Below are positions 39,079 to 40,771 of a stretch of DNA of 64,000 nt, piece after piece (position 1 is the stretch's first letter; each line of letters starts with the position of its first letter). Under the pieces are notes generated by a model that worked only from the letters and a program-made list of their open reading frames with translations, did not search any database and was not told the origin of the DNA. The translations under genes were made by a program, and so were the position numbers. Source of the stretch: Eukaryota sp. TZLM1-RC. Lineage: Eukaryota; Protista; Metamonada: BaSk clade. Location of the stretch: positions 5,237,784-5,301,783 of the forward strand of contig JAUPSS010000004.1 of the NCBI GenBank assembly GCA_040285825.1, given 5' to 3'.

Positions 39079-39094
39079 AGTGTTGAAAAACACT
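39079..39094 (-). promoter_or_regulatory. Histone 3' stem-loop (variant) of H2A
   Basis: AGTGTT-TTTC-AACACT on the minus strand, overlapping the stop codon. Confidence 0.75.
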
Positions 39095-39477
39095 TAGATT
39101 TCTTGAGAAGCTTGTTCTTCGGCTTCAACGCGAGCCTTGGATCCCTTTGGAAGAAGATCGGAATGGATATGAGGAAGAACACCACCAGAGGGAATCATAA
39201 TGTGGGACAAAAGCTTGCTGAGTTCTTCATCATTACGGATAGCCAAGAGAATGTGTCTGGGGACGATACGGGTCTTCTTGTTATCTCTAGCAGCGTTACC
39301 AGACAATTCAAGGACCTCAGCGGTGAGGTATTCAAGGACAGCGGCCATGTAGACGGGAGCACCAGCTGCAATACGTTCAGCATAGCGACCTTCACGGAGG
39401 TAACGACGAATACGACCTACAGGGAATTGGAGTCCTGCTTTGAAGGAAAGAGTACGAGCACCAGTTTCTTCAGCCAT
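39094..39477 (-). CDS. H2A: Histone H2A with H2A.X-like SQEI C-terminus
   Basis: [30 protein letters not shown]..; true ATG at 39477; ends ASQEI. Confidence 0.97.
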
Positions 39478-39626
39478 GAGAGATGAACTAATGAGGAAAA
39501 GGAAACAGAATTTCAATTTCAAGACGACAATTTTGATTGTTGCAAGATTGTCGTTTGTGGCAAAACATTGAATCAGCTTCTTTTTGTTGCAAAAACAAAT
39601 TCACAATCACCATTTCTCTCAATCTC

Positions 39627-40061
39627 ATGCCCGGAAAGAAGTCTGTAAAGTCTACCAAATCCATCAAGGGAGTTCCCTCCAAAGCCCCATCAAAGGCACC
39701 TGCCAAAGCTGTAAGCAAGGCTGTTGCTGAAGGAGGAGCTGTCGCTGCTGCTCCCAAGCGTAAGAAGGCCCGTAAGGAGACATGGGCTACTTACATCTAC
39801 CGTGTCCTGCGTCAAGTTCATCCCGATACTGGTATCTCCACCAAGGCTATGGGAATCATGAACTCTTTTGTCAATGACATTTTTGAACGTATCGCCACTG
39901 AAGCTTCTCGTCTTGCTCGTGTTAACAAGAGAAATACTCTTTCTTCTCGTGAAATTCAGACTGCTGTTAGATTGTTGTTACCTGGTGAACTCTCCAAGCA
40001 TGCTGTTTCTGAAGGTACCAAGGCTGTTACCAAGTTTACCTCTGCTGGTGAAGCTGAATAG
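39627..40061 (+). CDS. H2B: Histone H2B
   Basis: [34 protein letters not shown] at 39627; divergent from H2A across 149 bp. Confidence 0.97.
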
Positions 40062-40077
40062 ATTTGTGGTATTTGAT

Positions 40078-40093
40078 GGTGTTTTTCAACACT
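40078..40093 (+). promoter_or_regulatory. Histone 3' stem-loop (variant) of H2B
   Basis: GGTGTT-TTTC-AACACT, 16 nt after the stop. Confidence 0.75.
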
Positions 40094-40430
40094 GGATAAA
40101 TTTGTTTTTTATTTTTGCTATCAAGATGTCATTTAGTTTTTTAATTGAATGGAATGCAAAAAGCTTCTATATCAATCACTTTGAGCATTGTTCAAAATTT
40201 ATGAGCTTGACATAGCTTCATCATTGCATTCAAACTGCATTTATCACCAAAAGGGTTAGAAACGACACATCATGAGAATTGATTTTTCTATCAGCAGTGT
40301 GAGAAGCATTGACAGAATAAGCCACCATTAGTGATGGAACGATAATTAATCTTGGCAAGACAATTTCCAGAATCAAACTCAAATTCTCAAATTCTTTGAA
40401 AATAATGTATTCTTATATTCATAGATCTCA

Positions 40431-40742
40431 ATGGCTGGCCGTGGAAAAGGTGGAAAAGGTTTAGGTAAAGGTGGTGCCAAGCGCCATAGAAAGGTTCTTC
40501 GTGAAAACATTCAAGGTATTACCAAGCCTGCTATTCGTCGTCTTGCTCGCCGTGGTGGTGTCAAGCGCATATCTGCTTTGATCTATGATGAAACCCGTAC
40601 CGTTCTCCGTACTTTCCTCGAAAACGTGATCCGTGACTCTGTTACTTATTGTGAACATGCCAGAAGGAAGACTGTCACTGCCATGGATGTTGTCTATGCC
40701 TTGAAACGTCATGGGCGTGTTTTGTATGGTTTTGGTGTTTAG
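40431..40742 (+). CDS. H4: Histone H4
   Basis: [36 protein letters not shown]. Confidence 0.99.
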
Positions 40743-40755
40743 GATTTTGTTGTGG

Positions 40756-40771
40756 GGTGTTTTTCAACACT
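40756..40771 (+). promoter_or_regulatory. Histone 3' stem-loop (variant) of H4
   Basis: GGTGTT-TTTC-AACACT, 13 nt after the stop. Confidence 0.75.

What the first reader, a model, noticed from the sequence alone, without database searches (positions are those of the whole stretch)
39079..40771. Variant histone 3' stem-loop shared exactly by H2A, H2B and H4
Seen: (G/A)GTGTT-TTTC-AACACT lies 0-16 nt after the stop of all three histone genes (39079-39094 minus, 40078-40093, 40756-40771), while the rest of the UTRs are unrelated. I did not notice it after other genes. Known: replication-dependent histone mRNAs carry a 6-bp stem with a 4-nt UUUC-type loop (GGCYCU-UUUC-AGRGCC) bound by SLBP. Here the geometry and loop are kept but the stem is rewritten and AU-rich. 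H2A also has AATAAA about 10 nt further downstream. Inference: a lineage-specific SLBP-type histone mRNA control element, possibly on polyadenylated mRNA.
Basis: partly seen in the sequence, partly recalled or inferred. Interest (0 to 1): 0.75.

Follow-up and report, generated by a model that had tools for sequence, protein, structure and literature searches.

The report
Histone stem-loop crowded against stop codon
Three histone genes of a free-living relative of Giardia end in the same 16-base hairpin, a common algal and protist form of the histone-message stem-loop; here it lacks its usual flanks, sits at or just after the stop codon, and is followed by a likely poly(A) signal, so it probably acts as a protein-binding tag inside tailed messages rather than as their end.

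Summary
In detail: one 15-mer follows H2A, H2B and H4 and occurs nowhere else in the window. The organism is a Skoliomonas-type metamonad. The stem is not lineage-specific. The same GTGTT/AACAC stem follows 11 of 47 distinct histone stem-loops in unrelated metagenome loci, and the core keeps G-C pair 2, the top U-A pair and the U-x-U loop. The setting is what differs. The hairpins start -1, 13 and 16 nt from the stop codon, against 20-134 nt in 52 comparators. The A/C-rich flanks are gone and no AAAGA downstream element follows. Each hairpin is followed by the RTAAAY motif that also follows 6 of 9 non-histone genes. Best reading (0.6): an SLBP-type tag inside short polyadenylated 3' UTRs, a state already described for Physarum and early fungi. 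SLBP and the mRNA ends could not be tested. This scan noted a divergent histone stem-loop before in a green alga (e1-566204). Side lead, probably stronger: two related ~30-kb viruses carry this stem with normal flanks behind five tandem non-histone genes each.

The parts
39094..39477 (-). Histone H2A gene, 127 aa, ending SQEI (an H2A.X-type C-terminal motif; label recalled)
   Evidence: the homolog P0078 also ends SQEI, supporting this stop
39079..39094 (-). H2A hairpin (6-bp stem, UUUC loop); its first base is the last A of the TAA stop
39063..39069 (-). Poly(A)-signal-like AATAAAT, 9 nt after the hairpin (function inferred)
39478..39626 (.). Shared divergent H2A/H2B promoter region with an inverted ACGACAAT pair (39524 +, 39554 -)
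39627..40061 (+). Histone H2B gene, 144 aa
40078..40093 (+). H2B hairpin, 16 nt after the stop; bottom pair G-U
   Evidence: related copies list no change inside it
40095..40101 (+). Poly(A)-signal-like GATAAAT, 1 nt after the hairpin (function inferred)
   Evidence: lies within the stretch still aligned in related copies
40431..40742 (+). Histone H4 gene, 103 aa
40756..40771 (+). H4 hairpin, 13 nt after the stop; bottom pair G-U
   Evidence: related copies in X1 and X4 align through it and diverge after 40772
40798..40804 (+). Poly(A)-signal-like TATAAAT, 26 nt after the hairpin (function inferred)

Best explanation
The hairpin is a diverged form of the eukaryotic histone-mRNA stem-loop that likely still binds an SLBP-family protein, but it probably sits inside a very short 3' UTR of polyadenylated histone messages instead of ending them. 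Shown: the same 6-bp/UUUC hairpin follows three different histone classes, keeps the core features cited for SLBP recognition, lacks the A/C-rich flanks and a fixed downstream element, and is followed by the motif that follows most genes in the window. Inferred: cleavage is set by that RTAAAY motif through ordinary cleavage and polyadenylation, and the hairpin acts as a histone-specific tag for coordinated export, stability or decay. In H2A the hairpin lies within about 15 nt of the stop, so a terminating ribosome would have to melt it. Binding would then be limited to nuclear or non-translating messages, or be reset at each termination (inferred).
For: The 15-mer is identical behind three unrelated histone classes, and shuffles give at most 10. 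Core features are kept: G-C at pair 2, U at loop positions 1 and 3, top U-A. G-C pair 2 and loop U3 are given as diagnostic in bioRxiv 10.64898/2026.10.14.759114, and G7 is the only base-specific SLBP contact (PMC10388802 passages). The same stem is in 11 of 47 distinct comparator stem-loops. The comparator-only core score is 18.0-19.4 bits, the top three in the window and inside the comparators' self-inclusive range of 16.4-28.3. Related H4 copies in two samples of one study align through the hairpin with an indel in the spacer and become unalignable right after it, where AATAAA follows at once. RTAAAY lies within 65 nt of the stop in 3 of 3 histone and 6 of 9 non-histone genes (shuffle mean 1.4, maximum 6; control windows 2, 3, 1 and 2 of 12). 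It follows only 2 of 46 comparator stem-loops within 45 nt. Its distance from the hairpin varies (1, 9, 26 nt) and no AAGA follows. Giardia histones use a related signal and have no stem-loop (PMC1872034). An H4 is in the top-100 list of the congener GEMRC, from poly(A)-selected RNA. Stem-loop plus poly(A) signal is reported for Physarum and early fungi, and SLBP-like proteins are reported in the metamonad Monocercomonoides.
Against: The 5' adenines that human SLBP contacts, and that are given as needed for full affinity, are missing in all three copies: flank scores are -15.7 to -30.4, against at least -2.9 in comparators and -12 +/- 7 for random sequence. The distance to the stop is below all 52 comparators (minimum 20) and below the 25-60 nt called critical in animals. 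The hairpin is weak (-3.5 kcal/mol; comparators -10.7 to -2.7). In a 140-nt context the H4 hairpin is outcompeted by pairing with the last codons (pair probability 0.0). The covariance model with flanks gives only E 0.42-0.45, and a non-histone site ranks above the three. RTAAAY was chosen after looking at these same genes, and n is 12. No row annotated as histone is in the S. litria top-100 list. One related H2A copy in X3 has other letters right after the stop and its contig ends 10 nt later. Two more distant H4 contigs in X2 show no hairpin in the 30 letters printed.
Confidence: 0.6

Rival explanations
1. The hairpin is an orphan of the SLBP system. SLBP is lost or no longer binds, and the sequence is kept by another reader or acts without protein, for example as a brake on the terminating ribosome or on 3' exonucleases, or as a spacer that presents the poly(A) signal.
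For: The 5' A flank is lost in 3 of 3 copies. The H2A hairpin overlaps the stop codon. SLBP is reported absent in Giardia, in the sister group (PMC11529991 passage). Hairpins without detectable SLBP occur in some fungi.
Against: The exact positions cited for SLBP recognition are kept and the 15-mer is invariant across three histone classes. A purely structural role would tolerate compensatory changes like those seen across comparators. SLBP-like proteins are reported in another metamonad.
Confidence: 0.2
2. It is a classical stem-loop end. Histone messages are cut just after the hairpin and carry no poly(A) tail, as in green algae, and the downstream TAAA motifs are a fail-safe or are used at other life stages.
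For: The stem is the same as in loci whose H4 is identical to Chlamydomonadales H4 (L019), and green algae make poly(A)-less histone messages (PMC13130582 passages). No histone-annotated row is in the S. litria poly(A) top-100 list. Related H4 copies show AATAAAG directly after the hairpin, which is purine-rich.
Against: There is no ACCA-type 3' flank and no AAGA element after any of the three hairpins. RTAAAY follows 3 of 3 here but 2 of 46 comparators. Cutting after the H2A hairpin would leave a 3' UTR of about 15-20 nt. In a cycad, weak hairpins go with polyadenylated messages.
Confidence: 0.15
3. It is a DNA element, a palindromic site for a dimeric factor that regulates or positions histone genes, and the RNA fold is incidental.
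For: GTGTT-N4-AACAC is a perfect inverted repeat, and the antisense strand folds about as well (-4.3 to -4.9 kcal/mol).
Against: All three copies have the TTTC loop on the coding strand, including the gene on the minus strand. The bottom pair (G-U or A-U) closes only on the sense strand in H2B and H4. The element matches a known RNA motif position by position.
Confidence: 0.05

Closest known systems
Metazoan replication-dependent histone mRNA 3' stem-loop (Rfam RF00032 Histone3) with SLBP, HDE and U7 snRNP
   Same: 6-bp stem, 4-nt U-rich loop, G-C at pair 2, top U-A pair, placed after histone stop codons; 9 of 16 bases match the form GGCTCTTTTCAGAGCC seen in comparators.
   Different: No A/C-rich flanks, no AAGA downstream element, -1 to 16 nt from the stop instead of 25-60 nt, bottom pair G-U or A-U, poly(A)-like signal 1-26 nt later, no RF00032 hit.
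Algal/protist GGTGTT-N4-AACACC histone stem-loop (L019, L020, L022, L029, L060, L069, L077, L087; the H4 of L019 is identical to Chlamydomonadales H4 and that of L077 to Prymnesium/Ostreococcus H4, weak taxonomic labels)
   Same: Identical five inner stem pairs; 14 of 16 bases match. RF00032 also misses the four such loci tested.
   Different: Those keep a G-C bottom pair and A/C-rich flanks and lie 27-67 nt from the stop.
Stem-loop plus poly(A) signal histone genes (Physarum, PMC8600027; 'SLBP-SL-PAS' state of early fungi, bioRxiv 10.64898/2026.10.14.759114)
   Same: A hairpin followed by a poly(A) signal in one short 3' region.
   Different: Physarum rows seen lie 30-51 nt from the stop and most have an HDE and SLBP/Lsm10/Lsm11. 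Here there is no HDE, the hairpin abuts or overlaps the stop, and SLBP is untested.
Giardia core histone genes (PMC1872034)
   Same: Very short 3' regions with an RTAAAY-like signal near the stop; Giardia lies in the sister group of this clade.
   Different: Giardia has no stem-loop and is reported to lack SLBP.

Membership tests
Histone 3' stem-loop (SLBP type) | 6-bp stem with 4-nt loop | tested here: met
   in a long H4 context an alternative fold wins in silico.
Histone 3' stem-loop (SLBP type) | G-C at stem pair 2, U at loop position 3 (also U1 and top U-A) | tested here: met
   3 of 3. Without filtering on these features, 47 of 62 comparator genes with a perfect hairpin have both G2-C and U1/U3.
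Histone 3' stem-loop (SLBP type) | Restricted to histone genes in the genome | tested here: inconclusive
   Met within 64 kb; no whole genome is held; H3 and other copies were not seen.
Histone 3' stem-loop (SLBP type) | A-rich 5' flank and ACCA-type 3' flank | tested here: not met
   0 of 3 have two adenines among the three bases before the stem; 44 of 47 comparators have at least two A in the last five bases; flank scores.
Histone 3' stem-loop (SLBP type) | [quoted passage not shown] | tested here: not met
   -1, 13 and 16 nt; comparators 20-134, median 51, n=52.
Rfam RF00032 Histone3 | Score at the gathering threshold | tested here: not met
   No hit. The model also misses 5 of 8 control loci that have clear stem-loops, so this says little.
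SLBP/U7 3' processing | Purine-rich HDE at a fixed distance | tested here: not met
   No AAGA in the 30 nt after any of the three hairpins.
SLBP/U7 3' processing | SLBP, Lsm10/Lsm11 and U7 encoded in the genome | not testable with these tools
   No genome is held; no SLBP query sequence could be obtained; the searchable supplements hold only top-100 gene lists.
SLBP/U7 3' processing | mRNA ends just after the hairpin without poly(A) | not testable with these tools
   No RNA run was listed for the stretch.

The most novel reading that the evidence does not exclude
In the sister clade of Giardia the histone stem-loop has been turned from an mRNA end into a termination-coupled switch. It sits inside the footprint of the terminating ribosome on polyadenylated messages, so each round of translation would strip and reset its binding protein, giving histone-specific control without U7 and without the flanks that SLBP uses elsewhere. 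It would also place the loss of the SLBP system after the split of this clade from fornicates.
Probability: 0.2. Interest if true: 0.65.

Novelty: new variant of a known kind. Interest (0 to 1): 0.38.

Why it matters
Protist histone stem-loops are common (214 of 310 surveyed species), so one more is expected. This case matters for two narrower reasons. It lies in the sister group of fornicates, where Giardia has neither the hairpin nor SLBP, so it helps date that loss. It is also a natural test of which parts of the element are dispensable: the core is frozen across three histone classes while the flanks, the spacing to the stop and the downstream element are gone. The viral side lead would matter more: it suggests viruses that end their own messages with the host's histone signal.

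Tried and rejected
Genome-wide search: no genome is held. Rfam: no Histone3 hit; this is uninformative because the model misses 5 of 8 control loci. RNA evidence: no RNA holder listed, which is no evidence either way. X5 covered only H4 coding sequence and X6 nothing. SLBP: degenerate motif scans found 0 matches in viral contigs and 4 in prokaryote genomes, all in short frames of 13-51 codons and judged chance. PF15247 rang neither in the one record searched nor in the controls. No SLBP term was found in 5 readable supplement files of PMC11316075, and file 6 was unreadable. Close relatives in metagenomes: the H4 scan returned 80 loci of 493 confirmed, from a scan cut at 7 of 64 parts; none was Skoliomonas-like (best identity 92%), so they served as comparators only. 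The 2-mismatch site at 57162 forms a 5-bp hairpin after a TAA, but no frame of 30 codons or more ends there; it is treated as chance. The covariance model R1 alone does not give significant hits in the window. Covariation describes comparators selected for pairing, so it is not independent support. 'Lineage-specific stem' was rejected. Lopez and Samuelsson 2008 is not held and is known only through papers that cite it.

Full report
OBSERVATION. The window holds a divergent H2A/H2B pair and a tandem H4; tblastn finds no H3 or H1. The 16-mer is at the three stated places with no mismatch. One further site has 2 mismatches; chance gives 0.34 such sites, and 0 of 100 shuffles reached 4. The three 60-nt 3' regions share a 15-mer, against at most 10 in 5000 shuffles. 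The gaps from the stop codon are -1 (H2A: the first stem base is the last A of TAA), 16 (H2B) and 13 (H4). The H2A stop is credible because a homolog ends in the same SQEI. Each 26-mer folds into the expected hairpin. In longer context the H2A and H2B hairpins hold (pair probabilities 0.67-0.96), but the H4 hairpin is outcompeted by pairing with the last codons.

ORGANISM. The nearest named relative of the window's beta-adaptin is from Eukaryota sp. GEM-RC1 (46% identity). The H2B falls in a 90% cluster whose 8 named members of 9 are from Eukaryota sp. TZLM1-RC, the type isolate of Skoliomonas litria. That clade is sister to Fornicata, which includes Giardia. Histones are multi-copy there. No genome was available to search.

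CONSERVATION IN RELATIVES. Contigs from two samples of one study (X1, X4) carry related copies with scattered coding changes. Their H4 copies align through the hairpin, have a T inserted in the spacer, and become unalignable after 40772, where AATAAAG follows at once. Their H2B copies show listed changes only in the spacer (40071, 40076) and diverge after 40111-40113, beyond the GATAAAT. No change is listed inside either hairpin, but two differences per H4 record are not placed by the tool, so this is not base-by-base proof. Against: an H2A copy in X3 has other letters after the stop and ends 10 nt later; these could be a spacer or a variant 5' arm, which cannot be told. Two more distant H4 contigs in X2 show no hairpin in 30 printed letters and may come from other organisms.

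IS THE STEM LINEAGE-SPECIFIC? No. H4 scans gave 8 viral-collection and 80 metagenome loci (the latter are the best 80 of 493 from a partial scan). Of 106 histone gene ends found, I dropped 3 (two with long C-terminal extensions, one without downstream sequence). Of the remaining 103 genes in 84 loci, 52 have a hairpin passing my filter (six pairs, G-C at pair 2, U at loop positions 1 and 3), 47 of them distinct. Those features are fixed by the filter. Without it, 47 of 62 genes with a perfect 6-4-6 hairpin still show both. The GTGTT/AACAC stem occurs in 11 of the 47, from 8 loci, behind H2A, H2B and H4. The H4 proteins of some of these loci are identical to those of Chlamydomonadales (L019), Prymnesium/Ostreococcus (L077) or a broad plant-type set (L069) (weak labels). 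An A-U bottom pair occurs in 2 of 52 and G-U in none. A pair-aware core model trained on 42 comparators ranks the three window sites top, at 18.0-19.4 bits; the next site scores 12.7 and comparators 16.4-28.3, self-inclusive. A covariance model with flanks matches only the core, at E 0.42-0.45 and ranks 2-4 of 16. Rfam RF00032 misses the window and also 5 of 8 control loci, including all four GGTGTT-type ones.

WHAT IS UNUSUAL. (1) Spacing: -1, 13 and 16 nt against 20-134 nt (median 51) in 52 comparators and 25-60 nt in animals. In mammals a barrier about 15 nt past the stop is attributed to the ribosome (PMC12775136), so the H2A hairpin would lie under a terminating ribosome (inference). (2) Flanks: 44 of 47 comparators have at least two A in the last five 5' bases. 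The window's flanks score like random sequence, although human SLBP contacts the 5' adenines. (3) No AAGA element follows. (4) RTAAAY follows all three hairpins at variable distance and also 6 of 9 non-histone genes: 9 of 12 against a shuffle mean of 1.4 and control windows of 1-3 of 12. It follows 2 of 46 comparator hairpins. I chose the motif after seeing these genes; it resembles the Giardia signal in print.

MECHANISM. Most likely (0.6), an SLBP-type tag inside polyadenylated messages, with the end set by RTAAAY. The anatomy is shown; SLBP binding, cleavage site and function are inferred. Rivals: an orphan hairpin with another reader or none (0.2), a classical tail-less end (0.15), a DNA palindrome (0.05). 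Published expression data are weak both ways. An H4 is in the GEMRC top 100 from poly(A)-selected RNA, and no histone-annotated row is in the S. litria list, where reads would be spread over many copies. All attempts to reach an SLBP sequence failed, so the protein's presence is open.

WHAT IS KNOWN. Stem-loops were detected in 214 of 310 protist species and SLBP-like proteins in Monocercomonoides. Hairpin plus poly(A) signal is described in Physarum and early fungi. Giardia has poly(A) signals and no hairpin. I found no mention of a Skoliomonas histone hairpin in searches or in the text of the 2026 preprint; its supplements were closed and may list it. It works like a histone stem-loop and shares its core, but it fails the flank, spacing and HDE criteria, so I file it as a new variant of a known kind.

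SIDE LEAD. The exact 16-mer pattern gave 126 loci in viral contigs from a partial scan, none with histone homology within 400 bases. Two related contigs of 30-33 kb stand out. In L219 and L225, five consecutive same-strand ORFs each end 43-94 nt before GGTGTT-N4-AACACC with normal A/C-rich flanks: 10 of 30 ORFs examined, with 3 of the 33 listed ORFs left out. None of the ten has a Pfam hit among those scanned. Three of them pair between the viruses at 27-47% identity, so the hairpin outlasts the proteins. The comparator model scores them 21.6-31.9 bits. The 33-kb record has 5 forward, 0 reverse and 0 control matches of a loose pattern and no histone. Both contigs encode VLTF3-like and YqaJ proteins, and one has a weak A32 ATPase match, which recalls small relatives of giant viruses (label from memory). 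The host is unknown. One search and the preprint's text showed no report of this; that is a thin check.

PAPERS SEEN. 10.64898/2026.10.14.759114: abstract, Introduction, Results parts 1-2 of 3, one Methods section, passages. PMC1872034, PMC13525598, PMC12775136, PMC10388802, PMC11603281, PMC13130582: passages. PMC8600027: passages and section 19. PMC11529991: abstract and passages. 10.1101/2023.05.03.539051: passages and section 5. PMC11316075: supplement search and file 5 part 1 of 4. Lopez and Samuelsson 2008: not seen.

VERDICT. Real, selected, histone-specific within the window, and of a known kind. Interest 0.38.

Noticed in passing
L219:6585-11216 (+) and L225:1-4276 (-): Two related 30-33 kb viral contigs (VLTF3-like and YqaJ genes; no histone found in the one searched whole) each have five tandem non-histone ORFs followed 43-94 nt later by a histone-type stem-loop with normal A/C-rich flanks; none of the other 20 ORFs examined has one. 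Likely viral use of the host's histone mRNA end; probably more novel than the finding itself and worth its own follow-up.
   Followed up: partly
L093:396-421 and 857-882 (-); L147:396-421 (+); L226:666-691 (+): The same stem-loop with A/C-rich flanks in two giant-virus bins (in L093 and L147, 49-99 nt after non-histone frames) and in a 2-kb viral contig; no histone found in the bin behind L093. Contamination from a host was not excluded.
   Followed up: partly
window 39524 (+), 39554 (-), 40357 (+): A[AC]GACAAT lies 74-103 nt upstream of all three histone starts, inverted between H2A and H2B; 3 of its 8 occurrences in the window are here. Candidate histone promoter element.
   Followed up: partly
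window 39097-39108 (-): H2A ends in SQEI, an H2A.X-type phosphorylation motif (label recalled), as does the RCL homolog P0078; the bulk H2A may double as H2A.X.
   Followed up: no
window, 3' of 9 of 12 genes: RTAAAY, with both TGTAAA and AATAAA forms, appears to be the poly(A) signal here, between the Giardia WGURAA and the ancestral AAUAAA types discussed in PMC11529991.
   Followed up: partly
window 54701-54897 and 54969-55550 (+): Two fragments of LSU rRNA without the rest of the operon.
   Followed up: no
window 44524-45615: A tRNA-like gene (45149-45219, -) lies between 235-bp inverted repeats of 75% identity; possibly a non-autonomous element.
   Followed up: no
window 14456-17495: Long tandem repeat of 654-bp units (97% identity) inside a 2106-aa kinesin gene.
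   Followed up: no
L001, L005 (after H4): Viral-collection H4 genes lack the strict histone stem-loop; L001 has a different 6-4-6 hairpin 5 nt after the stop.
   Followed up: no
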